IMG/VR virus record: IMGVR_UViG_3300006805_000023
DNA length: 64,000 bases
Direction: 5' to 3' (one strand)
Source: a virus
Taxonomy: Duplodnaviria > Caudoviricetes
Of the stretch, positions 49,988 through 63,103 are shown piece by piece. Below the pieces are notes generated by a model. That model did not search any database, was not told the origin of the DNA, and saw only the letters and a list, made by a program, of their open reading frames with translations. The position numbers and the translations under genes are program-made. Numbering within the stretch: position 1 is the stretch's first letter; the number at the start of each line of letters is the position of its first letter.

Positions 49988-50464
49988 ATGAAGAAAATCC
50001 GCCCTCCACGTCGCTACCCAGTCATCACTGAACTTAACGGGGTCGCACCGACTCCCGACACGATTCTGGTGGCCGACACGGACAAGTTTTGCCTTGATCT
50101 GGGGGAGGAGGGTATCATGCTGCCAAACGCCCTGCGCACCGACTACGACCGCACCTTTGACATCGGTGTTGTCACTTCGGTTGGTTCAGGCATCGACGAC
50201 CTCAAACCGGGCGACGTCATCACATACCGAACATACGCAGCTTACCGGCTCCCCAACGGCCTGTTCCCGCCGTTCATGTTCAAGATCGACTACTACGCGG
50301 TGATCTGCAAGCTCGGCGAAGATCCTGATTACCTCGCCGAGGCACTCGCTGTCGAAAAACAAGAACTTGAGGCTCCTCCCGATGCCAAAAAAGAACCAGA
50401 GTCCCTCCTCATCCTCCCAGGTCAGGAAGGGTACCACCGCCCCACCGGCAAGATCGTCATCTGA
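49988..50464 (+). CDS. GroES-like co-chaperonin 2
   Basis: P.PD.ILV...EEGIMLP...GVVTSVG.....LKPGDVI.Y. Confidence 0.7.
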   Translation: MKKIRPPRRYPVITELNGVAPTPDTILVADTDKFCLDLGEEGIMLPNALRTDYDRTFDIGVVTSVGSGIDDLKPGDVITYRTYAAYRLPNGLFPPFMFKIDYYAVICKLGEDPDYLAEALAVEKQELEAPPDAKKEPESLLILPGQEGYHRPTGKIVI

Positions 50465-50762
50465 TCCGGATCTGACCAAACGCTGGTTGCAGCTTGCTTG
50501 GCGCGACGGAGCATTCCTGAGGCTTGAGCTTCAACAGCAGCTTCTCCTGATGCTGGAGATCGACGGCCCGTCACACAACGTGACGGTGCGCAATCAAGCC
50601 CTGCAGCTCGCGTGGGACAATGGCGTGTTCCTGAAACGTGAGTTCGTTCTTCAACGAGGAGTCCTTGAATACCTCGTAAGGGCAGAACTTGACAAACGTC
50701 AGGAACCTGCTATGTTGGACGCGCCTCAAGAGAACACTAAGCACAGGAAACCAAGTAAATAG
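50382..50762 (+). CDS. hypothetical protein with internal duplication, start uncertain
   Basis: LQLAWRDGAFL and LQLAWDNGVFL repeats; the nearest upstream ATG overlaps GroES-2. Confidence 0.35.
   Translation: MPKKNQSPSSSSQVRKGTTAPPARSSSDPDLTKRWLQLAWRDGAFLRLELQQQLLLMLEIDGPSHNVTVRNQALQLAWDNGVFLKREFVLQRGVLEYLVRAELDKRQEPAMLDAPQENTKHRKPSK
50689..50716 (+). promoter_or_regulatory. sigma70-like promoter TTGACA-N16-TATGTT with extended TG
   Basis: Upstream of the AAA ATPase gene. Confidence 0.6.
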
Positions 50763-50779
50763 CTATTTAGCCACCCCGA

Positions 50780-52627
50780 ATGAACATCACAATCGACTCC
50801 AACCTTCTCAAAGAGCTTGAAAAAGCTGGGATCAAGCACCCGCTGGTGCGGCCAGACACTGACCGTTATTCGAGCGCCGCCACATTCTCCCTCTACTCTG
50901 TGTCCCCCACTTTCCGGGAGAAGCTGCAGAAGCATCTGGCGCGCAACGCGGAAAGCTCTCGTGAGCACAACAAGCTGCTCCAGAAGATCTCCCAGTTTGA
51001 GAAGGTCTGCAAGAGCCCTCGCACCTTCAAGGCCAAGCGCCTGGACGCTCTAGAGGCAGCGCTGACCGGAATCATCATGGAATCTGGCAAGAACCGTTTC
51101 TTGTGGGACCGTGACAACGGCCTCCCGTGGCTGGTGACCGGAGTCAACTACAAGCCATGCGAACGTGACTGCCCAGCTACTGTCACCGTCAGCATGGTAG
51201 CGACCCGTTGCGGTGAAAACGCCAGCCGGTCCATCGTTTACCACCAGTCCGACATCACGGACGTGCCTGATGCGATCGTCCCAAACAAGAAGACCGCCTT
51301 GGAAATCCTCGATGAGGACGAGGACGAGGAAGGCGACATCACGCTGGTCGGCGTGCCGATCCCACAGAGCGTCCATGGCATGCTCTACGCCAAGGGTTTC
51401 ATCATGGAGACGCCGGAGCTGGTGGAGGCCTATGAAGAGCGCATGGCGCGCTGGCGTGTGGTTTACAAGGCCTCCTATGAACAGTTCCTGTTCAAGACCG
51501 AGGACTTCAGCAGCGACACCCTGGACGTCGATGACGACCGTTGGGACTGGGACTGGAAGAAGAAACAGAAGGGCATCAGCCAGGGCGTGTTCCGGGTTGT
51601 CAACGACGTACCATTCTTCAAGTCCAGGAACAAGGCCATCGTCGAGTATAAGGCCATCCCATCGCTGGCTCGCACGGTGGATGAAACGTCCACCGAAGAG
51701 TTTGATTTGGACGAGGTCGCCAATTTCCGGATTCCAGTCCACCCCTACGTTTACGTGTTCAATCTGGAGACCCACAAGCACTCGTGGGTGCTGGCCGAGC
51801 AGATGTTCGAGTACAAGTACAACAAGCATCTGGTCGAGAAACTGATCTTACCAGAGCGCTTCAAGAAGTTGGTCAACATCCTCGCTACCAACACCGACAT
51901 TCTGAGCGCTGACATTGTGGCTGGCAAGTCCGCTGGCACGATCATCATGGCGACCGGCGAGCCCGGTCTGGGCAAATCTCTGACCGCTGAGGCCACCGCT
52001 GAGGCCAAGGGCTCCATCCTTTACAAGGTGCAGTCCGATCAGCTCGGCACTGAGCCAGAGAAGATGGAGGAGCACTTCAAAGTGATCTTCGCCCGTGCTG
52101 AGCGCTGGAAGGCAGTGCTGCTGATCGACGAGTGCGACATCTATGTTCATGAGCGTGGCACCGACATTCAGCAGAACGCCATCGTGGGGACCATCCTGCG
52201 CACCTTCGAGTATTTCAACGGCCTGATGTTCCTGACGACCAACCGCGACGTCATCATTGACGACGCCGTGATTTCACGCTGCGCTGCGGTGATCCGCTAC
52301 GAGTACCCGACGGACGAGGACGCCCACAAGCTGTTCAGCATCTTTGCCGATCTGTTCGAAATGGCGCTGCCTGACAACACTCTGGCAGAGTTCCGCAAGC
52401 AGCACCCACGGCTGTCTGGGCGCTCCATCAAAAACGTGCTGCGCCTCACGGCCCGTCGCGGCGTCAAGCTGGCCACCCTGGAGGATCTGCTGCTGTCCAA
52501 GGAGTTCGTGCCATCTGGAGGCCTCGGGCAAACGCAGATCCCGCTGACCAACACGGAACTGCTCGAATTGGTCATGCAGCGTCCAGGCCTGCTGGACCTC
52601 CTGCGCCAGTGCACCAAAACGAAATGA
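50780..52627 (+). CDS. AAA+ ATPase
   Basis: GEPGLGKS, LLIDECD, FLTTNR, D.AVISR. Confidence 0.9.
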   Translation: MNITIDSNLLKELEKAGIKHPLVRPDTDRYSSAATFSLYSVSPTFREKLQKHLARNAESSREHNKLLQKISQFEKVCKSPRTFKAKRLDALEAALTGIIMESGKNRFLWDRDNGLPWLVTGVNYKPCERDCPATVTVSMVATRCGENASRSIVYHQSDITDVPDAIVPNKKTALEILDEDEDEEGDITLVGVPIPQSVHGMLYAKGFIMETPELVEAYEERMARWRVVYKASYEQFLFKTEDFSSDTLDVDDDRWDWDWKKKQKGISQGVFRVVNDVPFFKSRNKAIVEYKAIPSLARTVDETSTEEFDLDEVANFRIPVHPYVYVFNLETHKHSWVLAEQMFEYKYNKHLVEKLILPERFKKLVNILATNTDILSADIVAGKSAGTIIMATGEPGLGKSLTAEATAEAKGSILYKVQSDQLGTEPEKMEEHFKVIFARAERWKAVLLIDECDIYVHERGTDIQQNAIVGTILRTFEYFNGLMFLTTNRDVIIDDAVISRCAAVIRYEYPTDEDAHKLFSIFADLFEMALPDNTLAEFRKQHPRLSGRSIKNVLRLTARRGVKLATLEDLLLSKEFVPSGGLGQTQIPLTNTELLELVMQRPGLLDLLRQCTKTK

Positions 52628-53397
52628 ACCCACACTTCTGCGCCGATACTCATCTGGGTCACGCCAACGTGATCAAGCATGATCCGCGCCCATTCGAGAA
52701 CATCCAGCACCACGACCGCGTGGTGCTGGACTCGTTTCGGGCTCTGCCGACTGGCAATGAGCTGTGGGTGCTCGGTGACGTCGCCTTTACAAAGCAGGCT
52801 ATGGAGGACTTCTTCGCAGCCACGTCGCACCTGCAGGTATTCCTGATCCGTGGCAACCACGACGATGCCCTCGCCTGGAAGCAACGAGCCAAGTTTCACG
52901 CAGCCTACGAGTCCCACTATGTTAAGCGCCAGCTCGGCGAGGAGACGATCAAGTTGTATCTGTCCCATTACTCTCACCGTACATGGCGCAACTCCTGCCA
53001 CGGCTCCTACCACCTGTTTGGGCATTCCCACGGGGCGTTGGAGTCGGTCGGGCGCTCGATGGACGTCGGGATCAACTGCCTCAACTACGCCCCGATCTCG
53101 CTACTCGCGGTGCACGAACGCCTTGCAACGATCGAGCCTGAAAGCCACCACGCCAAGCAGCGCGTCAGCCACCGCTTCGTCTCCCGGATGGAGAAGGAGC
53201 TGCTCGCCAACGAAGAGCGCAAGGGCGACTGGAAGGCCTGGGAACCCAACCCAGGTGAGGCCCTGGGTGAGCTGTCCGACCACGTCGGCAAGCTCAAGGC
53301 GGCGGTCGCCGAGGGCGACAAGGCCCGCGTCTCCGAGTTTACCGCCGACGTTGCCAATCTCTCGATGATGATCGACGCCCAAAGCGGGCTCCCTTGA
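52624..53397 (+). CDS. calcineurin-like metallophosphoesterase with C-terminal MazG-like helical domain
   Basis: DTHLGH, LGD, GNHD, GHSH; C-terminal M...L.AN..KG.W...E....ADVANLSMMI. Confidence 0.8.
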   Translation: MNPHFCADTHLGHANVIKHDPRPFENIQHHDRVVLDSFRALPTGNELWVLGDVAFTKQAMEDFFAATSHLQVFLIRGNHDDALAWKQRAKFHAAYESHYVKRQLGEETIKLYLSHYSHRTWRNSCHGSYHLFGHSHGALESVGRSMDVGINCLNYAPISLLAVHERLATIEPESHHAKQRVSHRFVSRMEKELLANEERKGDWKAWEPNPGEALGELSDHVGKLKAAVAEGDKARVSEFTADVANLSMMIDAQSGLP

Positions 53398-53419
53398 CAC
53401 TCCAAGCACCCACACGCCC

Positions 53420-54100
53420 ATGAGCACCACCACGACTCCAACGCCCCACGGGGCAATCATAGCAATCGAAGGCCTGGAGGGTGTTGGGAAATCCACTCAA
53501 GTCGTCTTGCTGGCTGATGCCTTGATGCGCCTCGGCTACGACGTCAAGACGCCACGGGAGCCAGGCGGGACGGGTTTTGGCGAGGAGGTGCGTCGCATTC
53601 TGAAGAATGGGGAGTACAAGCCGGTGCCGAAGGCCGAGCTGCTCATGTTCGAGGCCAGCCGTGCTCAGTTGATCGAGTCCATGCAGGACCATTTGGAAAA
53701 GGGTGGCATCCTGATCATGGACCGGTTCATCTGGTCCACCCTAGCCTACCAAGGAGCTGGCCGTGGCCTCGATTCTGTGGATATCAGGTTCCTCAATTCC
53801 TTCGCGACGTCCGGCGTGCATCCTGACTTGGTGGTGGTGCTCGACCTCACGGTTGCGGAATCGCGTGGCCGGTTGTTCAAGCGGAACGACATCACGGACA
53901 ACTTCGAGTCCCTTGCAGATCCGTTCTTCGAGCGTGCCAGAAACTGCTTCATCGAACTGTGCGCCGAGCACTCCGGGCGCTCCATCTTGCTCGACGCCAG
54001 GCAAGAGGTGCCGGTCATCCACACGCGTATTCTGGAAAAGACAGTGTCGATGCTATCGGCCAAAGGAGTCGTCCCGTCCTCTTCCTCCTGCCAGGCCTGA
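53420..54100 (+). CDS. tmk: thymidylate kinase
   Basis: IEGLEGVGKSTQ, REPGG, DRF..ST.AYQG.GRG, PDL...LD. Confidence 0.93.
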   Translation: MSTTTTPTPHGAIIAIEGLEGVGKSTQVVLLADALMRLGYDVKTPREPGGTGFGEEVRRILKNGEYKPVPKAELLMFEASRAQLIESMQDHLEKGGILIMDRFIWSTLAYQGAGRGLDSVDIRFLNSFATSGVHPDLVVVLDLTVAESRGRLFKRNDITDNFESLADPFFERARNCFIELCAEHSGRSILLDARQEVPVIHTRILEKTVSMLSAKGVVPSSSSCQA

Positions 54101-55057
54101 TCACCCGACTGGCGTAACTGCCTGCTTGTTGTAGAGGATCATATGCCTCACACCGCTCTGAAGCGGATCTGTCACGTAAGCGTCGTAAAACTTCGCCATG
54201 TTGGCAACGAACGCGTCTGGACTGCTCTTGTAAAAGTCAGCTGATACGCTCTGGACAGCTTCAGCCATCCCCTGCCTGAACACCACGTCGATGAACGCTT
54301 TTAGGCCGCGCTTGACGTTGCCCTCGCCGTCAGCGTCCCAGTCCCACATCGTCTCTCCGACGTCAGGGGCAGCCATGACGAGAGCGCTCGTGATCCGTGC
54401 GCTAAATCTGGTCTTGTCGGAAAGAACTCGGGCACCTGGGTTGAGCCTGAACTGGTTGAGCTTGCCGTAGTAAGAGGCGTCCTCACGGTTGCTCGTCAGA
54501 TACCACCCAGGACCACGTTGATGATAGGCCTGCGACTGCCCGTCTGTGTCGGTGTTGCCAAACACTCCAGGAACATCGGTGCCACGGTACCACGGGATGC
54601 TGCTTGGGTCGAAGGCCTCAGTCAGCAAGGACTCCGCGAGAATGTCGGCCCGTTTGACCGGCGTGATCTGGACGTCGTCGGCCTCGAACACCACGCCTGG
54701 AATCTTGGTCCAGGAATAGCCGCTGCCGCGTTCGTACACGTGCGGAGGGATGTCAACCTCGAAGGCCTCACGATCGTCGTAGGCGTACAGGTAAGCGTGG
54801 TCGTCTCCGTCCTGCCCTCCCTCGGTGGTGTCGATCCCAGCGTGGGCTAGGATGCTGGCGATTTCAGACGCGATCTCGTCGCAGGCCCCGCCACCGCCGA
54901 ACTCCTCGTCCATCCCGTCTTCGTCTTGGTTCCAGGCGTCGTATACCGCTTGGGCCGCCTTCGCCATCGCCGGTGTCAGTTGTCTGATCCGGTCGTGCAA
55001 ACTAGACTGCTGGGCTCCTTGGTGGATTTCGAGCAGGGTGCGGCGAATGCTTGTCAT
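54101..55057 (-). CDS. transglutaminase-like plus ADP-ribosyltransferase-like protein
   Basis: GACDEIA...HAYL...EVD; WYRGT...G.GWYLTS....A..YG; TAGATAT 12 nt upstream of ATG 55057. Confidence 0.6.
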   Translation of the reverse strand: MTSIRRTLLEIHQGAQQSSLHDRIRQLTPAMAKAAQAVYDAWNQDEDGMDEEFGGGGACDEIASEIASILAHAGIDTTEGGQDGDDHAYLYAYDDREAFEVDIPPHVYERGSGYSWTKIPGVVFEADDVQITPVKRADILAESLLTEAFDPSSIPWYRGTDVPGVFGNTDTDGQSQAYHQRGPGWYLTSNREDASYYGKLNQFRLNPGARVLSDKTRFSARITSALVMAAPDVGETMWDWDADGEGNVKRGLKAFIDVVFRQGMAEAVQSVSADFYKSSPDAFVANMAKFYDAYVTDPLQSGVRHMILYNKQAVTPVG

Positions 55058-55079
55058 AAGGGATTTCTGATATCTAGCC

Positions 55080-56396
55080 TTGAAGTGCTCATCCTGCAAC
55101 TCCCCGTCTAAGTCGCACAAGTCTGGCAAGTGCTCCGACTGTCGCCGTGATGGTTTCAAGGAAAGGTCACTGGCGATCTGGGACGACGCGGACGCCAAGG
55201 CTGCATGGGCAAAGTCGTGTACCTTCAAGCCGCGCTCAGCGCTGAACCAGCAGGTCGAGACTCTTCTAACCCGGCTCAATATTCACTACATCACCGAACA
55301 CGTCATCGGGCCATGGTCATTCGACGTGTTTATCCCGCACTGTGGCCTCCTGATCGAGTGCCAGGGCGAGTATTGGCACACGGTGTCCCGCAAGGAGCGC
55401 GCCGACCGGGCCAAGGCCACTTACGTGGAGTCGTACACCAAGCTGCGACTCCTGGAGGTGTGGGAGGTCGAGTTTTACAAGCAGGGGAGGCTGGAGTACC
55501 TGGTCAAGCGCGCCCTCGGACTCCTGGAAGTGCCTCCGCAGAGCAGCGTTGACTTCACGAAGCTCGACTGCCGGGTGGTTGATCGCCGCGACGCCAGCCA
55601 GCTTTACGGATCATCCCATTACCTTGGATCGTGCCGTGGCCGCTGGCACTTTGGTCTTTATCTGGGCGACCTTTTGATTGGCGCTTGTTCGTTCGGTCAG
55701 TTTCAGCGTAACGAGCAGACCCTCAAATACGAAGGAGCGTCGGAGCTTACCCGGTTCTGCATCGATTCGGCTTATCAAGTCAAGAACCTGGGGTCGTGGT
55801 TCCTATCACGCTCCCTCAAGCTCATCGGGGGTACCGTCGTAACCTATGCGGACCGCACCCAGGGGCATGACGGAGCGCTGTACAAAGCCACTAACTTCAC
55901 ATTCAGTCACGAGGTACCAAGCGATTACCACTACGTCGATCCGGGTGGTTGGGTGTTGCATAAAAAGACTGTCTGGAACCGGTCGGTGTCCATGAAGATG
56001 ACCGAGGCCGAGTATGCAGCTAAGCATGAGTTGTCGAAGAAATGGGGAGCTGCCAAGCTGTGCTTCATCTTCACGGGGACGCCTGCCCGGACGCACAAGA
56101 ACAAACCGCCAGTGCTGCAGCCGCGCAAGGTAGTCAGCGAGGTTGTCGGGAAGGTGGCTCAGCCCGTCCTTGATGTTGCCTTGATTCAGCAACTCAAGCT
56201 CGGCGGGACCTCTGCGGGAGCCCTGGCAACTCAGTTTAGCGTGTCCAGGGCTATGATCTTCCACACTGTGAAGCTTAGGCTCGTTGACTGTCACGAACAC
56301 GGTAAGCTCTGGTCCAAGAAGGACTCCTGCCCGAAATGCCGTGCTGTCCAGGGCTCTAAGGCTGGTGGTAAATGGGTCAAGGACGCGATGTCTTGA
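55080..56396 (+). CDS. zinc finger / Vsr-like endonuclease / Mom-like GNAT / HTH fusion
   Basis: CxxC..CxxC; FDVFIP...IECQGEYWH...DRAK; SHYLG...ELTRF...NLGSWFLSRSL...TYAD..QGH.G.LYKATNF; C-terminal HTH and CxxH/CxxC; TTG start. Confidence 0.75.
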   Translation: MKCSSCNSPSKSHKSGKCSDCRRDGFKERSLAIWDDADAKAAWAKSCTFKPRSALNQQVETLLTRLNIHYITEHVIGPWSFDVFIPHCGLLIECQGEYWHTVSRKERADRAKATYVESYTKLRLLEVWEVEFYKQGRLEYLVKRALGLLEVPPQSSVDFTKLDCRVVDRRDASQLYGSSHYLGSCRGRWHFGLYLGDLLIGACSFGQFQRNEQTLKYEGASELTRFCIDSAYQVKNLGSWFLSRSLKLIGGTVVTYADRTQGHDGALYKATNFTFSHEVPSDYHYVDPGGWVLHKKTVWNRSVSMKMTEAEYAAKHELSKKWGAAKLCFIFTGTPARTHKNKPPVLQPRKVVSEVVGKVAQPVLDVALIQQLKLGGTSAGALATQFSVSRAMIFHTVKLRLVDCHEHGKLWSKKDSCPKCRAVQGSKAGGKWVKDAMS

Positions 56397-56403
56397 TACA
56401 GAT

Positions 56404-56437
56404 GAGCCGGAGGTGCTCCCGAATTCACCTCCGGCTC
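56404..56437. terminator. hairpin between convergent capsid and Vsr-Mom genes
   Basis: GAGCCGGAGGTG / CACCTCCGGCTC 12-bp stem. Confidence 0.7.
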
Positions 56438-56504
56438 GCTGCTTATGGCCCTTGGGACCGATCCAACCTAGTTAAGTCGGTCCCATGGGAATGTGTTTCA
56501 CGGC

Positions 56505-57932
56505 TTAGCTGCCGAAGCTGGTCGGCATGTTGCTGATGCGGACCGTCGAGTAGTACTTGTTGTTGATCATCGCCTTGCCGTAGCTGGAGGCGAAACCGCG
56601 ACGGCTCATGAAGTCGTCCAGCTCGACCGTTGGGGTCGTGAAGAGCAACAGCCAAGGAGCGAAGACGTAGCCCGTGCGGACGAATTCGTTGCCCTTGTAG
56701 CCGACGAGGGTTTCGGTGACGGGGTAACGGGTGTCGCCGTAGAGGTCGAGACGACCCAGCTTGCCCATTTCGTGCGCACCTTCGATCTCGGCGTCGTCGT
56801 TCTTCGCTTCGAAACCAGCGAGGGTCTCGACGATGTTGGAAGCCTGCTGGCCGAGCAGAGCCCAGTTCGCACGAGCACGGTTGGTGCCACGGGCGATGAA
56901 GCTGGAAGCACCGACGAGGGCGTCGATGAAGGACAGCTTGTGTTCCTGGAAGCTGATGTAGCTGCCGGTCGGGATGTTCGCGGACCAGTTGAAGGTACCA
57001 GCGCCAGCCTGCTTGCGGACGTCTTCGATCAGCTGACGGTCCACTTCCCAGTGGAGGTGATTGGTCACCGCTGGAGCCAGCATCGACTCAGCGTTCACCT
57101 TGTGGAGAGCGTCGAGAGCCATTGCGGCCTCACGGGTCCAGCGAGCGCGCAGCTTGCGGGTTTCCGCACGGATCGGGCGGCTCTGGAGCTCAAGGTCCAC
57201 CTGCTGGGACTCAGGGTTGAGTTCCTGGTGGTAGTTGTAGCTCACTTCGACCGCCGTGCCATCAACTGGCAGGCCGACGTCAGAGATCGACACTTCACCG
57301 GTCGCGTAATCGACGGAGCCTTTGGCAACCGAAGCCACGTTGTACATGATGCCGTCGCCGCCATCACGATAGACCGCCGTGTCGGCGACCAGCTGCAGGG
57401 TGCCGGGGATCAGAGGGGTGTAGGCCAGGCTGCCGGAGGTGGCAGAGCTGGACACCGCACCGAGCATTTCGGAGGTGACGCGGTCGCCGGAGTCCGTGTA
57501 ACGGTCAGCGTGGCCGGTCAGCGCATCCCAGATCTTGGAGCCGCGAGGGGTGTTGCCCTTGTCCTTGCCGGTCACGAAGTTCGCGAAGAAGATCAGACCG
57601 GTTGGGCCGTCGAGTGGCTGCACCGTGAAGAGCTTCTGGGCGATCAGGTTTTCCGACATGATCGAGATCATCGGCATGGCGTACTTGTCCCAAGTGCCAA
57701 TGTTGGTGCTCGTGGTGTTTTCCACCATGCCGTTGTTGATGGCATTGCGGTAGTTTTCGAGCATGTTGGCAGCGAAAGCCTTGGTGTAGTCGTCAGGAAG
57801 GCCATCGACCATTTCCTTCCAGCCCTTGGCTTCCATGATGTTGCCTTTGGAACCGACGCCCATGGGGGTTTCGGCGAGTTTGATGCCTCGAACGAGAGTC
57901 TCGACGAGTTTGGAGTTGTCAACGTGTGTCAT
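56505..57932 (-). CDS. major capsid protein (T4 gp23-like)
   Basis: VQPLDGPTGLIF, I.AETRKLRARWT.EAA..L.A.H..NAE..L, GY.FAPW, GFASSYG. Confidence 0.95.
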   Translation of the reverse strand: MTHVDNSKLVETLVRGIKLAETPMGVGSKGNIMEAKGWKEMVDGLPDDYTKAFAANMLENYRNAINNGMVENTTSTNIGTWDKYAMPMISIMSENLIAQKLFTVQPLDGPTGLIFFANFVTGKDKGNTPRGSKIWDALTGHADRYTDSGDRVTSEMLGAVSSSATSGSLAYTPLIPGTLQLVADTAVYRDGGDGIMYNVASVAKGSVDYATGEVSISDVGLPVDGTAVEVSYNYHQELNPESQQVDLELQSRPIRAETRKLRARWTREAAMALDALHKVNAESMLAPAVTNHLHWEVDRQLIEDVRKQAGAGTFNWSANIPTGSYISFQEHKLSFIDALVGASSFIARGTNRARANWALLGQQASNIVETLAGFEAKNDDAEIEGAHEMGKLGRLDLYGDTRYPVTETLVGYKGNEFVRTGYVFAPWLLLFTTPTVELDDFMSRRGFASSYGKAMINNKYYSTVRISNMPTSFGS

Positions 57933-57977
57933 TGCAGTGGGTAGCGTTTAGCTTGGGTGGGTGGTGAGTGCTTGGGG

Positions 57978-59888
57978 TTACTTCTTCTTGGGCTGAGCGC
58001 GACGAAGGGAACCGAGGAGACTGACCGACTCATTCAAGTCCTCAGCCGGAGGGGCAGGAGGAGCAGGAGGAGCCGGAGGGGTACCACCGGGTTTCGGGGC
58101 GCTCTCATTGAGCTTGGAAGCGGCGGCTTTGACAATGCGGTCCGAAGCTTCTTCAAGCTTGGTGTAGACCTTGATGCCCTCAAGTTCAGCCTTGTTGGCT
58201 TCGTAGAGTTCGGGCTTGATCTGCTTGAACAGCTGACGGCCCATCTCGGTCATGTCCTTGTTGTACTTCGTCGCGAGCTTCCGAGCGGCCTGTTCGTACA
58301 GGTCACCACCTTCACCGCGTTTGCCACGGTTACTTTCCTTGAGAGTCTTGTGTTCCTGGATCAGCGTTTCCGTGGCGGCGTTGAGGCGCTTGGTGCGGTT
58401 TTCGTTGATCTGCAGACGGCGCTGGAGCTTGGCGATGCCACGCTTGGCCTCGGGGAGGGTCGCAGGCTCGGGGATTTCTTCGAACGGCTCCTCACCGCCA
58501 GCTGCGTCATAATCGACGGGATCGGTGGCGACGCCGTCGGCGTTGGCTTCGAGTTCGTCGGCGAGTGCCAGAGCGGCTTCAGCGTCCACGCCACCTTCAG
58601 CGGAGGTGCGGAGCATGTCGGCGGCCTTGATCAGGAGGTCCGCAGTGGCGGAGCCTTCTTCGTTGCCTTCGTCTTCACCGCCAGGGGCAGGAGGAGCAGG
58701 AGGAGCGCCAGCGCCGGGGGCGGGAGGAGCAGGAGGGGCCGGAGGGGCGTCTTCTTCGTTCTCGTCGAGGCGGGTCGCGAAAGCGGTGAGGCGAGCGTTG
58801 GCGTCTTCGATGATGAGTTTGACATCCGGGTCTTCACGCATCAGGGCAGCAGCCTTGACGCGCATGGTGTCGATGGACTCAAGAAGCGCAGCCTTGTCGG
58901 AGGTCCTGAGTTTGGTGAAGTCCGTCTGGGCAAGACGGATGGCGTTGGTTTTAAGCTCGCGGGCTTCGATGAGTTTGCTCATTTCGGTGGTATTTTGCGT
59001 TGGTGTTGGGGCGGAGATTGGGGCGGGAACTGGTGCAGGAGGCGTCGGAGCGGTCTCGACGATCTTCTCTTTCGGTTTGAGAGCTGCGGCAGCTTCAGTG
59101 ATGCATCCCAGAGCGCTGGAGACTGAATCGAAGGTGCCGAAGTTGAGGGCGTCGTTGCCAGCGAACTTGAGCTTCCCGTCCTGACCTTCGATCAGAGAGA
59201 GTTTGCCGAACGCGCTGGAGACGACCGATACCAGAGTGCGGTTGATCGCGGATTCCTGGATGTCTTCTTCTGGACTTGGAAGGGTTGGAGCACGACCGGC
59301 GGCAACTTCCTGAATGTTCCTTGGGATGGCGCGCTGCACGGATGGCGTGAAGACCACGTCCCACGTTTCGAGCATGAAGTCCTCGTTGACGTCCAGGAAA
59401 CCTTCGGCCTGAGTGGTGGTGCCTGAGCCACGGCTGGAGACACCCCAGCGGACACGGGCTTCGATGAGGGACCGCAAGAGGTTACCCTGCGGCGTCGGCA
59501 GGACCTCAAGGGTGCCAAGGATGTCGCCTTCGCGCAGTTCACCCTTCGATTCGGCAATTTCAGACTCGGTGGCAAGCCAGACCTTGGTTACGACGTGGGA
59601 GGCCTCAGCCATCCTGGTCATACCGTCTTCTGGGTGCTCGATCATCCCAAGGACACCGCGCTCGGCGAGCATCTTGGAGAAGTCACTGCCGGGGGCAAGG
59701 TTCTTCTCCCAGAGCTTCTTGCCGTAGCGGCGACCGTTGAGGTTGGTCTCCACATGGTTTTGAAACACGCCAGTCGCCTGGAAAGTGGTGCGACCGGCTG
59801 CTTCGTGCAGCTGAATCGGGCCGTATTGACGGAAGCCGCTCTTTGAGAGGGACTCCTGTACTGTCTGCCATTCACTGAGTTTAATCAT
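57978..59888 (-). CDS. prohead protease (gp21-like) fused to scaffold/core region
   Basis: GVFQ....N.NGRRY, LG..EHP, ASH, TP.G..L..L....V.WGVSSRGSG, TWDVVFTPS; acidic, Pro-rich C-terminal half; TAGGTAT 7 nt upstream. Confidence 0.88.
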   Translation of the reverse strand: MIKLSEWQTVQESLSKSGFRQYGPIQLHEAAGRTTFQATGVFQNHVETNLNGRRYGKKLWEKNLAPGSDFSKMLAERGVLGMIEHPEDGMTRMAEASHVVTKVWLATESEIAESKGELREGDILGTLEVLPTPQGNLLRSLIEARVRWGVSSRGSGTTTQAEGFLDVNEDFMLETWDVVFTPSVQRAIPRNIQEVAAGRAPTLPSPEEDIQESAINRTLVSVVSSAFGKLSLIEGQDGKLKFAGNDALNFGTFDSVSSALGCITEAAAALKPKEKIVETAPTPPAPVPAPISAPTPTQNTTEMSKLIEARELKTNAIRLAQTDFTKLRTSDKAALLESIDTMRVKAAALMREDPDVKLIIEDANARLTAFATRLDENEEDAPPAPPAPPAPGAGAPPAPPAPGGEDEGNEEGSATADLLIKAADMLRTSAEGGVDAEAALALADELEANADGVATDPVDYDAAGGEEPFEEIPEPATLPEAKRGIAKLQRRLQINENRTKRLNAATETLIQEHKTLKESNRGKRGEGGDLYEQAARKLATKYNKDMTEMGRQLFKQIKPELYEANKAELEGIKVYTKLEEASDRIVKAAASKLNESAPKPGGTPPAPPAPPAPPAEDLNESVSLLGSLRRAQPKKK

Positions 59889-59950
59889 TGCTCGGATACC
59901 TATGACGCCCTGACCGGAGACTCGCTCTGAGTGCAACCTGATGCGCTCCG

Positions 59951-60364
59951 TTAAGCCTCGTCTGTACTGACCGGCAATGGGCGCATCGGAGACGGCGCAA
60001 CGCGTCCGGCTAACACGGACTTAGGCATGACAACTGGAGGGGCGTCTGGGAAGCCCGGTTCCAACTTGACGTAGGCCTGGCTGAAGTTCCAGATGTGTTG
60101 AAGCGACTTCTCGGCACGCTCTTTAGTAACACCGAACCTAGCCAGCTTCTGCAGCACCTGAGGGTCGTCCCCCATGATCGAGACCGTCTGACCACCATTC
60201 CACATCACCCTGAACATGGGCGACATTGGACGGCGTGTCAGTAGCACGTAACCAGGGTTTGGAACCTTCGGCACCCCGAACGGCACCTTGTAGTACTCCC
60301 GCTCTGGCAAGTCCAGAGTGTGACGCATCAGGGCGTCCTGCAGGAGATAATTCTTGAATGGCAT
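59951..60364 (-). CDS. hypothetical protein
   Basis: 137-aa ORF in the head operon. Confidence 0.6.
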   Translation of the reverse strand: MPFKNYLLQDALMRHTLDLPEREYYKVPFGVPKVPNPGYVLLTRRPMSPMFRVMWNGGQTVSIMGDDPQVLQKLARFGVTKERAEKSLQHIWNFSQAYVKLEPGFPDAPPVVMPKSVLAGRVAPSPMRPLPVSTDEA

Positions 60365-60373
60365 AGCCGTAGG

Positions 60374-60997
60374 CTAGTTGAACATTGACGCCAGCAAGTC
60401 CTCAAGAGCTTGCTTGGTCGAGGACTCCGTGACCTGGACTCCCCCAAACAGCCACGTGCCAGCAGCTGCCTTGAAATCGTCCATCATAGCCCCGCTGTAC
60501 ACCGACAGCAGCGGAGTCAGGCTGAACGGCCTCTTGCCAGACACGAAGTCGGCGGTTGACGGGTGCTCAGCCAAGGGGACGCCGTGGGCGTAGCCGCCGG
60601 ACTTCACGAGAGCGTTGGTAATGTGGATGGCGACCAGACGCGAGACGGCGTCGGAAAACTTCTGATAGACAACTCGGAGCGGAACACCAGAGTTGATGTG
60701 GTGCTCGATTTGTTCGATCGTGCGAGCCCGTGGAGTAACGAGCTTGTGCTGCCAAGTCAGACGGCTGCGCGGAGTCATCCGGTCCCAATAGGCCTCAAGG
60801 AATGACTGCGTGACCAAATAATGGGAGTCCTCGCCCTTGTCGAGGCACTCCTGAGCGATGTACACGACGTTCTCGACCTTGTCGTAGTAGCTGAACCTGC
60901 CGTTGATTCCGGGCGAGATCTTGTGCGGCGATGAGAACAGGTCGCTGGCTTTGATGTGGGAACGCAGCATCCCCATATAAGTGTTGAGGTCAGACAT
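60374..60997 (-). CDS. hypothetical protein
   Basis: ATG 60997 overlaps the stop of the upstream gene. Confidence 0.6.
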   Translation of the reverse strand: MSDLNTYMGMLRSHIKASDLFSSPHKISPGINGRFSYYDKVENVVYIAQECLDKGEDSHYLVTQSFLEAYWDRMTPRSRLTWQHKLVTPRARTIEQIEHHINSGVPLRVVYQKFSDAVSRLVAIHITNALVKSGGYAHGVPLAEHPSTADFVSGKRPFSLTPLLSVYSGAMMDDFKAAAGTWLFGGVQVTESSTKQALEDLLASMFN

Positions 60998-61817
60998 AAC
61001 GGGGAGGAGTTGGAGGGGACGGTGGCCTTGGTCCGGTCGAGGTGCTGGGTTGAGTTCCAGGCGGTGCTGGCTTGCCGTCTGGCTGGTCGGACCCGATCTC
61101 CTTGGTCGGGACATCTTCGGTCCCCTGATCTGGATGATCGGGGTCAATGACCGTGGTCCTAGTGGCGTCAGACTTCACGACCTGTCGCCTTCTAGTGTTG
61201 CCGTTCTGGACTGTGATGACCGGCTCCCCCGGCTTCGGCGGTGGGTTGGTTTCGAACAGGGCCGACATCAGCCTTGGCCCAGCCTGAACGGAGTCCCTCA
61301 AGCCCAGCTTCGACGCGAGGCCCTGAACCTCACTAGGAGGCTGCTCTTCTTCCTTGCCTTTGCTTGGGGCTGCATCTTTCGAGGGGCTGGCTGTGTCTTC
61401 ATTGTCGTCGCCTTCTGGTGGAGCATCTGGGACTTCTTCTGAGTCGGGAATTTGGACGCGCAGGCGCTGCAGACCCTCGAGGGTCTGTCGCATGTACTTG
61501 GAAAGCTCCGTGTCAGCGCTTCCCAGGATGTCCTGAATCTTGGCGACCAGTCCTGGGATCTGCTGCGAGGGGTCAGTCTGGGGGTCCGGCTTGAACTGAT
61601 GCATGGCACCCACCAGAGCTTCGATAAGCAGCTTCTCTTCGCTCTCTGCCGGGAGAGCACTGCTTGACAGGGCGCGTTCGTTCAGGAACTGGGTGGCGGT
61701 AAGCCACACGTCGCTGTACGACTTGTAAGCGTCATTTTCAAGCAGGATGGCGTGCAGCCTGCTCGTGCCGCTGCTTGCCCCCTTCGTTTCACTCAACAGG
61801 CACCTAAGGAGTCTCAT
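60990..61817 (-). CDS. hypothetical protein, candidate internal head protein
   Basis: TAGTTAT 5 nt upstream; LLSET, LLEN, LNER and LIEA motifs. Confidence 0.65.
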   Translation of the reverse strand: MRLLRCLLSETKGASSGTSRLHAILLENDAYKSYSDVWLTATQFLNERALSSSALPAESEEKLLIEALVGAMHQFKPDPQTDPSQQIPGLVAKIQDILGSADTELSKYMRQTLEGLQRLRVQIPDSEEVPDAPPEGDDNEDTASPSKDAAPSKGKEEEQPPSEVQGLASKLGLRDSVQAGPRLMSALFETNPPPKPGEPVITVQNGNTRRRQVVKSDATRTTVIDPDHPDQGTEDVPTKEIGSDQPDGKPAPPGTQPSTSTGPRPPSPPTPPRYV

Positions 61818-61834
61818 TGGTGATAACTAGGGGA

Positions 61835-62293
61835 TCACACTGGTGGGTGGCTTGGATAGTCGAACGGCGGGGTTTCGTCGTTGATCGTGCCGACCTTCGG
61901 ATCGGTCGGATGTAGGAACACACTGAATGCAACGGAGGCCGCCCCGCGAACCATCAAAGAGGTGACGCCATCGTTACCGGCCACGCCTGCGGCCAGGAAC
62001 TCGATGTCGGTGAACCAGTCGTCGAAGGAGACCGTGACGGACTGCTGCGGAACGACGGTGTTGATCTGGGAACTGCCGACCTTGACGCCGTCCTTCATGG
62101 AACGCAGAGTGAGTTCCACCGGCTTACGCCCGACGTTGGTCAGGTGAATCTCTGCCTTGATGCGTGGCACAGGCGTTGCTAGGGTAACACCGTTGCGGGT
62201 CAGCCCCTGCAACACGCTGTTGCCGTCTTGGGTCAGTCGAAGGAACACGCCTTCACCGGTCAAAGTCTGTAGCTGAGGAAGTGGGCTGGTCAT
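61835..62293 (-). CDS. putative beta-rich structural protein
   Basis: TAGCTAT 5 nt upstream; alternating hydrophobic beta-strand pattern. Confidence 0.55.
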   Translation of the reverse strand: MTSPLPQLQTLTGEGVFLRLTQDGNSVLQGLTRNGVTLATPVPRIKAEIHLTNVGRKPVELTLRSMKDGVKVGSSQINTVVPQQSVTVSFDDWFTDIEFLAAGVAGNDGVTSLMVRGAASVAFSVFLHPTDPKVGTINDETPPFDYPSHPPV

Positions 62294-62332
62294 CCCGAAT
62301 AGCTACGACGAGGTTGGTTTTGCGGGGGGGAC

Positions 62333-62360
62333 TTGACAGGCGCTCCGGATGTGCTAAGTT
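62333..62360 (+). promoter_or_regulatory. sigma70-like promoter TTGACA-N16-TAAGTT with extended TG
   Basis: Upstream of ATG 62396. Confidence 0.65.
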
Positions 62361-62395
62361 TCACCCGTCCGCTTAAACAGCACTCCCATCACACT

Positions 62396-63103
62396 ATGAT
62401 CACTGCCATCTCAATCGCCCCGACCTCCACCCCAGCCCCGACCCTCCCACCGGCTGACCTCACCATTGAGCTCTACCGGGCCGAACTCTCCAGAGACTTG
62501 GCCCTCATCGCCGAGTTCAACGGCGAGAGCGACAGCAAGCTGCGTCGCGAAATCGCCTCCAGCAACAGCCGTCGCTCCCACCTCATCATGGCACGCACCG
62601 CGATCCGCAAGTGGACTGAGAACGAGGCCCCGGCGATCCTGAAAGGCGACGTTCACATCAAGATGATCGGCGGCAAGGAAGTCGTCGATCCCTACGTCAA
62701 GCTGTCCAAGGACCTCAACCTGGACTCCCGTTTCTTCCAGATTCCGTCGGCCATCAAGGCACCGAAGGTCAAGGGGGTGACGGAGGCGCAGACCGCTGCC
62801 AGCAACATCCAGGCACGCTTCCGCAAGCTGCGCGAGGTCTCTTGCATGGACTGGCACTTCAAGCTGGAATGGATCACCGACATGACCCTGCGCATCCGCA
62901 TCGCCAAGCTGATCTGGTGGGACATGGCGAATACTCTCAAGAACCAGAACTGCGTTCTTACGGAACTGGTGAACGCTCCTATCACAACCGCTCAGGTTAT
63001 GGCCTACACGGAGGAGCAGGTCGCCTTCGAATTGTGGCGTCTGGGCTGGCCTGCAACTATGGCAGCCGACCGCGCCTTCCACGCCCAAAAACCACAGAAA
63101 TGA
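62396..63103 (+). CDS. hypothetical protein
   Basis: Strong codon bias; behind a promoter. Confidence 0.7.
   Translation: MITAISIAPTSTPAPTLPPADLTIELYRAELSRDLALIAEFNGESDSKLRREIASSNSRRSHLIMARTAIRKWTENEAPAILKGDVHIKMIGGKEVVDPYVKLSKDLNLDSRFFQIPSAIKAPKVKGVTEAQTAASNIQARFRKLREVSCMDWHFKLEWITDMTLRIRIAKLIWWDMANTLKNQNCVLTELVNAPITTAQVMAYTEEQVAFELWRLGWPATMAADRAFHAQKPQK

What the first reader, a model, noticed from the sequence alone, without database searches (positions are those of the whole stretch)
55080..56396. Vsr-like nuclease fused to a Mom-like DNA-modifying GNAT, inserted beside the capsid gene
Seen: the architecture ZnF - Vsr/EDxHD-like nuclease (E, H and D kept; second acidic residue is Gln) - Mom-like GNAT - HTH - ZnF. 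It lies antisense within a late region, directly downstream of the capsid gene. Known: Mu Mom hypermodifies adenine to block restriction, and Vsr-like and Hef-like free-standing homing endonucleases occur in phages. Inference: either a one-gene cut-and-protect system (modifying self, cleaving unmodified competitor or host DNA) or a homing element carrying an anti-restriction cargo.
Basis: partly seen in the sequence, partly recalled or inferred. Interest (0 to 1): 0.75.

Follow-up and report, generated by a model that had tools for sequence, protein, structure and literature searches.

The report
Hef-type homing endonuclease with Mom domain
This is a real gene for a selfish DNA-cutting enzyme of an already described kind (a Hef-type homing endonuclease carrying a domain related to phage Mu's DNA-modifying enzyme Mom), lodged next to the capsid gene of an uncultured giant phage; what the Mom-like domain does has never been tested.

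Summary
The best solved-structure matches are Mu Mom (8bv8) and the I-Bth0305I nuclease domain (3r3p).

The Vsr+Mom core is the body of the large "Hef-like homing endonuclease" family (PHROG 559/3339). At least 187 phage records hold it, including hef between nrdA and nrdB in a T4-like phage and an intron-borne copy in phage AR9. The nuclease-Mom fusion and the cut-and-protect idea are already in print (Iyer et al. 2021). This scan has noted the family before in at least 55 other genomes.

Evidence from relatives at this locus:
- The slot 3' of the capsid gene holds this gene in either orientation, two tandem family members, or an unrelated ORF.
- Against a 96%-identical strain, synonymous divergence is about 0.02 in the capsid gene, 0.43 in the Mom and C-terminal part, and 0.2 further left. 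Exchange breakpoints therefore sit at and inside the gene.
- The Mom domain is under very strong purifying selection (pN/pS 0.011) and keeps six of Mu Mom's seven key residues.

Verdict: a new member of a known kind of mobile gene. The Mom domain's role stays open.

The parts
55080..56396 (+). Whole gene: Hef-type Vsr-Mom homing-endonuclease-like protein, 438 aa, TTG start, TGA stop
   Evidence: ORF list. An identical protein is on record in public metagenomes. PHROG 559 gives E 9e-25 and PHROG 3339 gives E 5.5e-24 across residues 43-331.
55080..55229 (+). N-terminal module (residues 1-50): C4 zinc ribbon (C3, C6, C18, C21) plus one W-x-D-type helical repeat of the kind present in many copies in longer relatives
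   Evidence: Sequence. The module is conserved in P0003 and appears in the family consensus. AF2 gives helices at 19-47.
55230..55520 (+). Vsr-like (EDxHD-type) nuclease domain, residues 51-147. Candidate active site: N56, D82, E93, Q95, H100, D109, K112
   Evidence: 3r3p matches by sequence and by fold. D82, D109 and K112 are invariant in 65 clade members; E93 is kept in 64 and H100 in 63. Residue mapping follows Taylor et al. 2011.
55557..56078 (+). Mom-like GNAT domain, residues 160-333. H180, Y181, R225, S239, D258 and Y268 correspond to Mu Mom H58, Y59, R111, S124, D149 and Y159
   Evidence: Pfam PF25680 E 1.1e-16. Alignment with Mu Mom. Clade conservation. Fold match to 8bv8. pN/pS 0.011 against strain L010.
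56079..56168 (+). Linker, residues 334-363, predicted disordered
   Evidence: pLDDT is below 50 for residues 346-362.
56169..56354 (+). C-terminal DNA-binding module: three-helix HTH (364-398) and CHCC zinc ribbon (C404, H407, C417, C420)
   Evidence: AF2 secondary structure. The ligand residues are kept in P0003 and in L010 while neighbouring residues vary. The only sequence relative among 1.84 billion representative proteins is P0003.
56404..56489 (.). Two hairpins in the 108-nt convergent spacer between this gene and the capsid gene: a 12-bp perfect stem at 56404-56437 and a 13-bp stem at 56449-56489. They are candidate terminators for the two genes
   Evidence: Inverted repeats I5 and I6; sequence. 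They lack a T-tail, so the simple terminator scan did not list them.
56505..57932 (-). gp23-type major capsid gene, the conserved neighbour and the probable target region of the element
   Evidence: Pfam Gp23 E 1.2e-41. Family members lie directly 3' of this gene in four relatives: L010, L002, L013 and L014.
54101..55057 (-). Left neighbour ('gene X', 318 aa), divergent from the element. Its true start is the ATG at 55057, 22 nt from the element's start codon
   Evidence: The homologue in L002 begins at the residue that corresponds to M75 of the long ORF. A database protein of 318 aa is identical.

Best explanation
The gene is a free-standing homing endonuclease gene of the Hef type: a Vsr-like nuclease followed by a Mom-like GNAT domain. 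It occupies the variable slot just 3' of the major capsid gene of an uncultured T4-like phage of about 218 kb.

Proposed mechanism:
1. Inferred from the family: the zinc ribbons and the HTH hold the protein on a long site in or next to the conserved capsid gene of a co-infecting relative that lacks the element.
2. The Vsr-like domain (D82, H100, D109) cuts there.
3. Recombinational repair copies the element, and flanking capsid-side DNA, into the cut genome.

Shown here: family membership, both folds, conservation of both sets of key residues, the polymorphism of the slot, exchange breakpoints at the gene, and strong purifying selection.

The Mom-like domain is a constrained, integral part of the enzyme. 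My preferred reading (about 45%, inferred) is that it is catalytically active and aminoacylates adenine N6 at or near the enzyme's own target. This would make the carrier genome immune to its own nuclease. The alternative (about 35%) is that it serves as a non-catalytic DNA-recognition or base-flipping module.
For: Family and relatives:
- PHROG 559/3339 'homing endonuclease' profiles cover both core domains.
- tblastn finds the Vsr+Mom core in 410 phage records, 187 of them covering at least 80% of the core. Many are annotated Hef-like homing endonuclease, with up to 11 copies per Campylobacter phage genome.
- The family includes hef between nrdA and nrdB in Tequatrovirus SG1 and an intron-borne copy inside the AR9 RNA polymerase beta' gene.
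- Taylor et al. 2011 place Hef-type enzymes in the EDxHD family of the biochemically proven I-Bth0305I.

Folds: 8bv8 and 3r3p are the best matches.

The slot beside the capsid gene, in relatives:
- L010 (96% nucleotide identity): same layout.
- L002 (capsid 87% amino-acid identity): the orthologue is inverted relative to its flanks, with an extra ORF alongside.
- L011 (capsid 91%): no such gene; an unrelated 204-aa ORF sits in the slot.
- L013: one family member directly 3' of the capsid gene. L014: two family members in tandem there.
- Close homologues elsewhere abut helicase, DnaB and RNR genes.
- A second paralogue (P0010) lies in the same genome next to a helicase gene.

Mosaicism against L010, as synonymous divergence (pS): 0.018 in the capsid gene; 0.43 in the Mom and C-terminal parts; 0.18-0.22 in the Vsr part and the left flank.

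Selection (pN/pS): 0.024 for the Vsr domain, 0.011 for the Mom domain, 0.18 for the C-terminal module.

Key residues: the Mom residues H, Y, R, S, D, Y are invariant or nearly so in 65 clade members. They are the residues whose mutation cripples Mu Mom.
Against: - No cleavage, homing or modification has been measured for this protein or for any close relative.
- The first motif residue (Vsr E25, I-Bth0305I E170) is Asn here, and Gln in most of the clade. Nuclease competence is therefore inferred, not certain.
- Mu Mom's essential R151 is Thr here, and the dimer residue W48 is absent.
- No clean empty site was found. The relative without the gene carries a different ORF in the slot.
- The identity profile along the capsid gene shows no obvious co-conversion tract or target-site signature.
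- P0001 and P0003 are sister sequences that share a private C-terminal module. Vertical descent plus an inversion and one loss could explain much of the pattern without recent homing.
Confidence: 0.72

Rival explanations
1. It is a single-polypeptide restriction-modification-like conflict system rather than a homing element. The Mom domain modifies adenines across the phage genome. The fused nuclease degrades unmodified host DNA or the DNA of superinfecting phages. This is the reading of Iyer et al. 2021.
For: This reading is published for jumbo-phage Mom-REase fusions. Both active sites are conserved and under purifying selection. Mu Mom itself is an anti-restriction enzyme.
Against: - Family members carry long, highly variable sequence-specific DNA-binding modules. 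They occur in several differently targeted copies per genome: two here and up to 11 in Campylobacter phages. That suits site-specific homing better than genome-wide protection.
- Some copies sit inside introns.
- The locus shows the presence/absence and orientation polymorphism and the exchange breakpoints typical of homing genes.
Confidence: 0.15
2. It is a homing endonuclease in which the Mom-like domain is no longer an enzyme. The domain acts as a structural DNA-recognition, base-flipping or dimerisation module.
For: - Classical Hef proteins (SG1, AR9) keep the fold but have lost Y59, and in SG1 also D149. They fall below the Pfam Mom threshold.
- Mu's essential R151 is not kept in this clade.
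- Mu Mom's HTH-like insertion is itself a DNA-binding element.
Against: In this clade H180, Y181, R225, D258 and Y268 are invariant, and S239 is kept in 63 of 65 members. These are exactly the residues needed for Mu Mom catalysis. pN/pS is 0.011, lower than for the true DNA-binding C-terminal module at 0.18.
Confidence: 0.35
3. It is a domesticated, nuclease-dead derivative that works as a DNA-binding regulator of the neighbouring late genes, in the way CapR derives from homing-endonuclease DNA-binding domains.
For: The first catalytic Glu is replaced by Asn. The gene sits between the capsid gene and a divergent gene whose start codon is 22 nt away. Domestication of such domains is documented.
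Against: D82, H100 and D109 are kept, as are E93 and K112, and the Vsr domain has pN/pS 0.024. The closest relative by capsid (L011) does without the gene, so it has no essential regulatory role.
Confidence: 0.05

Closest known systems
Hef and 'Hef-like' free-standing or intron-encoded homing endonucleases of T4-related and jumbo phages (U5 Hef, Sandegren et al. 2005; PHROG 559/3339; e.g. Salmonella phage SG1 hef, Bacillus phage AR9 g146)
   Same: It has the same two-domain core, a Vsr-like nuclease followed by a Mom-like GNAT fold, with variable zinc-ribbon or repeat DNA-binding modules. It sits beside a highly conserved phage gene, and there are several copies per genome.
   Different: - Identity to isolated-phage members is only 23-29%.
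- This clade keeps the full Mom catalytic set and scores well above the Pfam Mom cut-off, which SG1 and AR9 Hef do not.
- The N-terminal repeat array is reduced to about one unit.
- A private C-terminal HTH plus CHCC zinc ribbon has been added.
I-Bth0305I, prototype of the EDxHD homing endonuclease family (PDB 3r3p; Taylor et al. 2011)
   Same: The nuclease fold is homologous (TM 0.76, rmsd 2.9 A; sequence E 0.0017). The equivalents of D196, H213 and D222 are kept, and the 'x' position is an amide residue in both (N208 there, Q95 here).
   Different: - I-Bth0305I has N-terminal NUMOD/HTH modules, a C-terminal nuclease and no Mom domain.
- It is intron-encoded.
- Its E170 corresponds to N56 here.
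Phage Mu Mom (PDB 8bv8; Pfam PF25680), the Gly-tRNA(Gly)-dependent adenine-N6 modifying GNAT
   Same: It is the best structural match (Z 16.0, 155 residues). H58, Y59, R111, S124, D149 and Y159 are kept, and so is the Mom-specific insertion region.
   Different: - Identity is about 20%.
- R151 corresponds to Thr and the dimer residue W48 is absent.
- Here the domain is fused to a nuclease instead of standing alone under Com control.
- Its activity and acyl donor are unknown.
Jumbo-phage Mom-REase fusions described by Iyer, Anantharaman, Krishnan, Burroughs and Aravind 2021 (PMC7824862)
   Same: This is the same architecture in the same kind of genome. The cut-and-protect idea is already stated there.
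   Different: That paper reads the fusion as a restriction-modification-like system and gives no locus-level evidence. The comparative data here point to homing-type mobility.

Membership tests
Hef-like Vsr-Mom homing endonuclease family (PHROG 559/3339) | Significant profile match spanning both the nuclease and the C-terminal domain | tested here: met
   PHROG 559 gives E 9e-25 over residues 47-309. PHROG 3339 gives E 5.5e-24 over residues 43-331.
Hef-like Vsr-Mom homing endonuclease family (PHROG 559/3339) | Vsr-like nuclease fold directly followed by a Mom-like GNAT fold | tested here: met
   AF2 model with pLDDT 87.5. 3r3p and 8bv8 are the best matches for the two domains.
Hef-like Vsr-Mom homing endonuclease family (PHROG 559/3339) | Free-standing or intron-borne position next to or inside conserved phage genes, with presence/absence polymorphism among relatives | tested here: met
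   The gene is present beside the capsid gene in the window, L010, L002, L013 and L014, and absent in L011. It is inverted in L002 relative to the window.
Hef-like Vsr-Mom homing endonuclease family (PHROG 559/3339) | Site-specific double-strand cleavage and homing into alleles that lack the element | not testable with these tools
   This needs purified protein or co-infection crosses. It is reported for U5 Hef only by citation; the original paper was not held in the library.
EDxHD homing endonucleases in the sense of Taylor et al. 2011 | Equivalents of D196, H213 and D222 (Vsr D51, H69, D97) | tested here: met
   D82, H100 and D109 are present. They are kept in 65, 63 and 65 of the 65 clade members.
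EDxHD homing endonucleases in the sense of Taylor et al. 2011 | First motif residue Glu (I-Bth0305I E170, Vsr E25) | tested here: not met
   This protein has N56. Across the clade the position is Q in 39 members, E in 11 and N in 10. Taylor et al. call this residue only a possible participant. I therefore treat the protein as a homologue of this family that lacks one letter of the name-giving motif.
Mom family (Pfam PF25680) | Profile score above the curated cut-off | tested here: met
   61.5 bits against a cut-off of 27.1, E 1.1e-16, residues 164-316.
Mom family (Pfam PF25680) | Residues shown by mutagenesis to be needed in Mu Mom: H58, Y59, R111, S124, D149, Y159 | tested here: met
   H180, Y181, R225, S239, D258 and Y268 are present and invariant or nearly so in the clade.
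Mom family (Pfam PF25680) | Essential R151 and dimer residue W48 of Mu Mom | tested here: not met
   R151 aligns with T260 (Thr in 56 of 65 members). A near-invariant His (H263) lies three residues on. No Trp is found at the W48 position.
Mom family (Pfam PF25680) | Gly-tRNA-dependent N6 modification of adenine in double-stranded DNA | not testable with these tools
   This requires biochemistry, nucleoside LC-MS or long-read kinetics.

The most novel reading that the evidence does not exclude
The Mom-like domain is an active, locally acting adenine-N6 aminoacyl transferase built into a homing endonuclease. Guided by the same DNA-binding modules as the nuclease, it marks the enzyme's own recognition site in the carrier genome. 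The element would then carry its own immunity: a homing endonuclease and its 'antidote' in one polypeptide.

In this phage an earlier, unverified note of this scan credits the genome with a PurZ-type 2-aminoadenine pathway. If that holds, the substrate could be the replaced purine rather than adenine.
Probability: 0.3. Interest if true: 0.7.

Novelty: new member of a known kind. Interest (0 to 1): 0.3.

Why it matters
The gene itself is ordinary for large phages. The useful point is that it belongs to a subclade of Hef-type endonucleases in which the Mom catalytic residues are fully kept and the domain is under extreme purifying selection (pN/pS about 0.01). That makes it a good candidate for finally testing what the Mom domain does in these very common selfish genes: site-specific DNA aminoacylation, self-immunity, or only DNA recognition.

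The locus also gives a clean natural example of a nuclease gene sitting exactly at a boundary of genetic exchange next to a major capsid gene.

Tried and rejected
- Homodimer test (residues 51-335, two copies, collected): no verdict, score 0.00. I draw nothing from it.
- Scans with the capsid protein: the viral-contig scan found nothing. The metagenome-contig scan found only one short distant locus. The relatives used came from exact-protein look-ups instead.
- The window's whole genome is not held, so other copies could not be searched directly. tblastn finds no second copy inside the 64-kb window.
- Flanking inverted or direct repeats that could explain the inversion or mark element ends: only short chance-level repeats were found, apart from the two intergenic hairpins.
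- Sigma-70 promoters: none in 54700-56700. The T4 late motif TATAAATA is absent from the whole window, so expression timing could not be inferred.
- Identity profile along the capsid gene between carriers and non-carriers of the element: it follows protein conservation, with no clear co-conversion tract or target-site signature.
- Pfam and PHROG scans of the N-terminal (1-55) and C-terminal (320-438 or 330-438) modules: no family matched. The C-terminal module has one relative only, P0003.
- The original Hef paper (PMC1275590) is not held in the library. Its content is cited only through papers that cite it.

Full report
**The object**

The ORF at 55080-56396 on the + strand encodes 438 residues from a TTG start. 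An identical protein is on record from public metagenomes on contigs of 185,594 and 218,247 bp. The N-terminal CxxC...CxxC is shared with a 60%-identical orthologue, P0003, which begins at the same place, so the long reading frame is the real one.

Neighbours:
- To the right, convergent, lies a gp23-type major capsid gene (56505-57932, minus strand). Beyond it is a prohead protease/scaffold gene.
- To the left, divergent, lies a 318-aa gene whose true start is 55057, only 22 nt from the TTG.
- The 108-nt convergent spacer holds two strong hairpins.

The phage is far from any isolate. Its capsid protein is at most about 32% identical to capsids in the phage collection.

**Architecture**

Pfam gives Mom (PF25680) at E 1.1e-16 for residues 164-316, and a weak Vsr-type REase match for residues 57-136. 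The nuclease part matches the solved nuclease domain of the homing endonuclease I-Bth0305I by sequence (3r3p, E 0.0017).

An AlphaFold2 model built on 65 homologues has mean pLDDT 87.5. It shows:

| Residues | Module |
|---|---|
| 1-50 | zinc ribbon plus helices |
| 51-147 | alpha/beta nuclease domain |
| 160-333 | GNAT domain |
| 346-362 | disordered linker |
| 364-398 | three-helix bundle (HTH) |
| 399-425 | small beta ribbon with ligands C404, H407, C417, C420 |

Foldseek ranks Mu Mom (8bv8) first at E 5.6e-9. It also finds 3r3p with TM 0.76 and rmsd 2.9 A. The second-look aligner gives Mom Z 16.0 over 155 residues, against 13.5 for the best generic GNAT.

**Active sites**

Taylor et al. 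define the EDxHD residues of I-Bth0305I as E170, D196, N208, H213 and D222, equal to Vsr E25, D51, H64, H69 and D97. Using the HMMER alignment, these map to N56, D82, Q95, H100 and D109.

In 65 clade members:
- D82, D109 and K112 are invariant.
- E93 is kept in 64 and H100 in 63.
- Position 95 is Q, N, H or D.
- Position 56 is Q in 39, E in 11 and N in 10.

The residue that is actually missing is the first Glu.

For the Mom domain, structure-guided mutagenesis of Mu Mom identifies H58, Y59, R111, S124, D149, R151 and Y159 as important (an earlier study agrees, with numbering offset by ten). Here they correspond to H180, Y181, R225, S239, D258, T260 and Y268. All but the R151 position are invariant or nearly so in the clade.

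**What family it is**

The PHROG 'homing endonuclease' profiles 559 and 3339 cover both core domains at E about 1e-24. tblastn with the Vsr+Mom core finds 410 phage records, 187 of them covering at least 80% of it. They are widely annotated 'Hef-like homing endonuclease', with up to 11 copies per Campylobacter phage genome.

Members include:
- the gene between nrdA and nrdB of the Tequatrovirus SG1, which is the classical hef position;
- a copy inside an intron of the AR9 RNA polymerase beta' gene;
- intron-borne copies in Bastillevirinae terminase genes.

Taylor et al. already assigned Hef-type enzymes to the EDxHD family. Iyer et al. [quoted passage not shown] Earlier notes of this scan record the same family in at least 55 genomes. 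The kind of gene is therefore known.

**Behaviour at this locus**

I compared relatives found through exact-protein look-ups.

| Relative | Similarity to the window | Content of the slot 3' of the capsid gene |
|---|---|---|
| L010 | 96% nucleotide identity | same layout |
| L002 | capsid 87% amino-acid identity | orthologue P0003 between capsid and gene X, inverted relative to its flanks, plus an extra 94-aa ORF |
| L011 | capsid 91% | no such gene; an unrelated 204-aa ORF |
| L013 | capsid 64% | one family member directly 3' of the capsid gene |
| L014 | capsid 55% | two family members in tandem |

Close homologues elsewhere abut helicase, DnaB and ribonucleotide reductase genes. A second paralogue (P0010, 56% identical in the core) lies in the same genome, next to a helicase gene.

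In a tree of the core, P0001 and P0003 are sisters (100/100). They sit inside a 13-member subclade that also holds the other capsid-adjacent copies and the helicase-adjacent ones.

**Mosaicism and selection**

Against L010, nucleotide identity is about 100% from 56,558 rightwards. It falls to 82-87% in the 3' third of the element and to 93-97% further left.

| Segment | Synonymous divergence (pS) | pN/pS |
|---|---|---|
| Capsid gene | 0.018 | 0.0 |
| Mom domain | 0.435 | 0.011 |
| C-terminal module | 0.43 | 0.18 |
| Vsr domain | 0.18 | 0.024 |
| Element residues 1-50 | 0.22 | 0.038 |
| Four left-flank genes | 0.18-0.21 | 0.056-0.22 |

Exchange breakpoints therefore lie at the element/capsid junction and near the Vsr/Mom boundary. 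This matches what has been described for phage nuclease genes at boundaries of genetic exchange (PMC10055350).

Fourteen of the 17 amino-acid differences fall in residues 339-409. The module expected to read DNA sequence is thus the fastest-changing part.

**Interpretation**

The best-supported reading is a free-standing Hef-type homing endonuclease gene targeting the capsid-gene neighbourhood. Cleavage and homing are inferred from the family, not shown.

The Mom-like domain is clearly functional in some sense. Whether it catalyses adenine modification is open. I lean slightly to catalysis, because exactly the catalytic residues are invariant and the constraint exceeds that on the DNA-binding module. 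The main counter-arguments are the loss of Mu's R151 and the partial decay of these residues in classical Hef proteins.

A genome-wide restriction-modification role fits less well with multiple, differently targeted copies per genome and with intron-borne members.

An earlier, unverified note of this scan says the genome carries a PurZ-type 2-aminoadenine pathway. If that is true, it bears on what base the domain would meet in the phage's own DNA. I could not check it.

**Verdict**

This is a new member of a known kind, of modest interest.

Noticed in passing
window 54101-55279 (minus strand): The mechanical ORF of 392 aa overlaps the start of the Vsr-Mom gene by 200 nt. Comparison with the L002 homologue and with an identical 318-aa database protein shows that the real start is the ATG at 55057. 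Homologues of its N-terminal third occur fused to many different C-terminal domains (GNAT, PARP-like and others), which suggests a shared adaptor or packaging domain.
   Followed up: partly
window 50358-62613 versus L010: There is a sharp mosaic. The capsid-to-tail side (56558-62557) is 98-100% identical between two strains apart from scaffold low-complexity dips, while everything left of the capsid gene is 80-98% identical. The breakpoint falls in the 108-nt spacer between the element and the capsid gene.
   Followed up: yes
L014:1865-5212: A relative carries two Hef-family genes in tandem directly 3' of its capsid gene. One is of the classical type, whose Mom-like domain escapes the Pfam model. 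The other is of the Mom-positive type, with a CapR-like/DUF723 module.
   Followed up: partly
L011:2339-2953: In the closest relative by capsid (91%), an unrelated 204-aa ORF with no family match occupies the slot held here by the element. The slot is a general plasticity site, not only a homing site.
   Followed up: partly
phage record KT624200.1 (Bacillus phage SP-15), 25590-27984: The best isolated-phage match to this capsid is split in two pieces with a 'putative endonuclease' annotated between them. This gp23-type capsid gene appears to be interrupted by a mobile endonuclease element.
   Followed up: no
same genome, outside the window (about 42.7 kb before its start; 7-10 kb beyond its end): Earlier notes of this scan place several features in the same 218-kb genome: a second Vsr-Mom paralogue (P0010) next to a helicase gene, an HNH insert in thyA, a lone TnpB, and a PurZ-type 2-aminoadenine pathway. 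The genome is rich in mobile nucleases and may have non-canonical purines. I confirmed only the paralogue, by sequence index and cluster data.
   Followed up: partly
window 57978-59936 (minus strand): The prohead protease (Peptidase_S77) is fused to a long scaffold-like region with proline/alanine-rich low-complexity tracts. These tracts differ in length between the window and L002.
   Followed up: no
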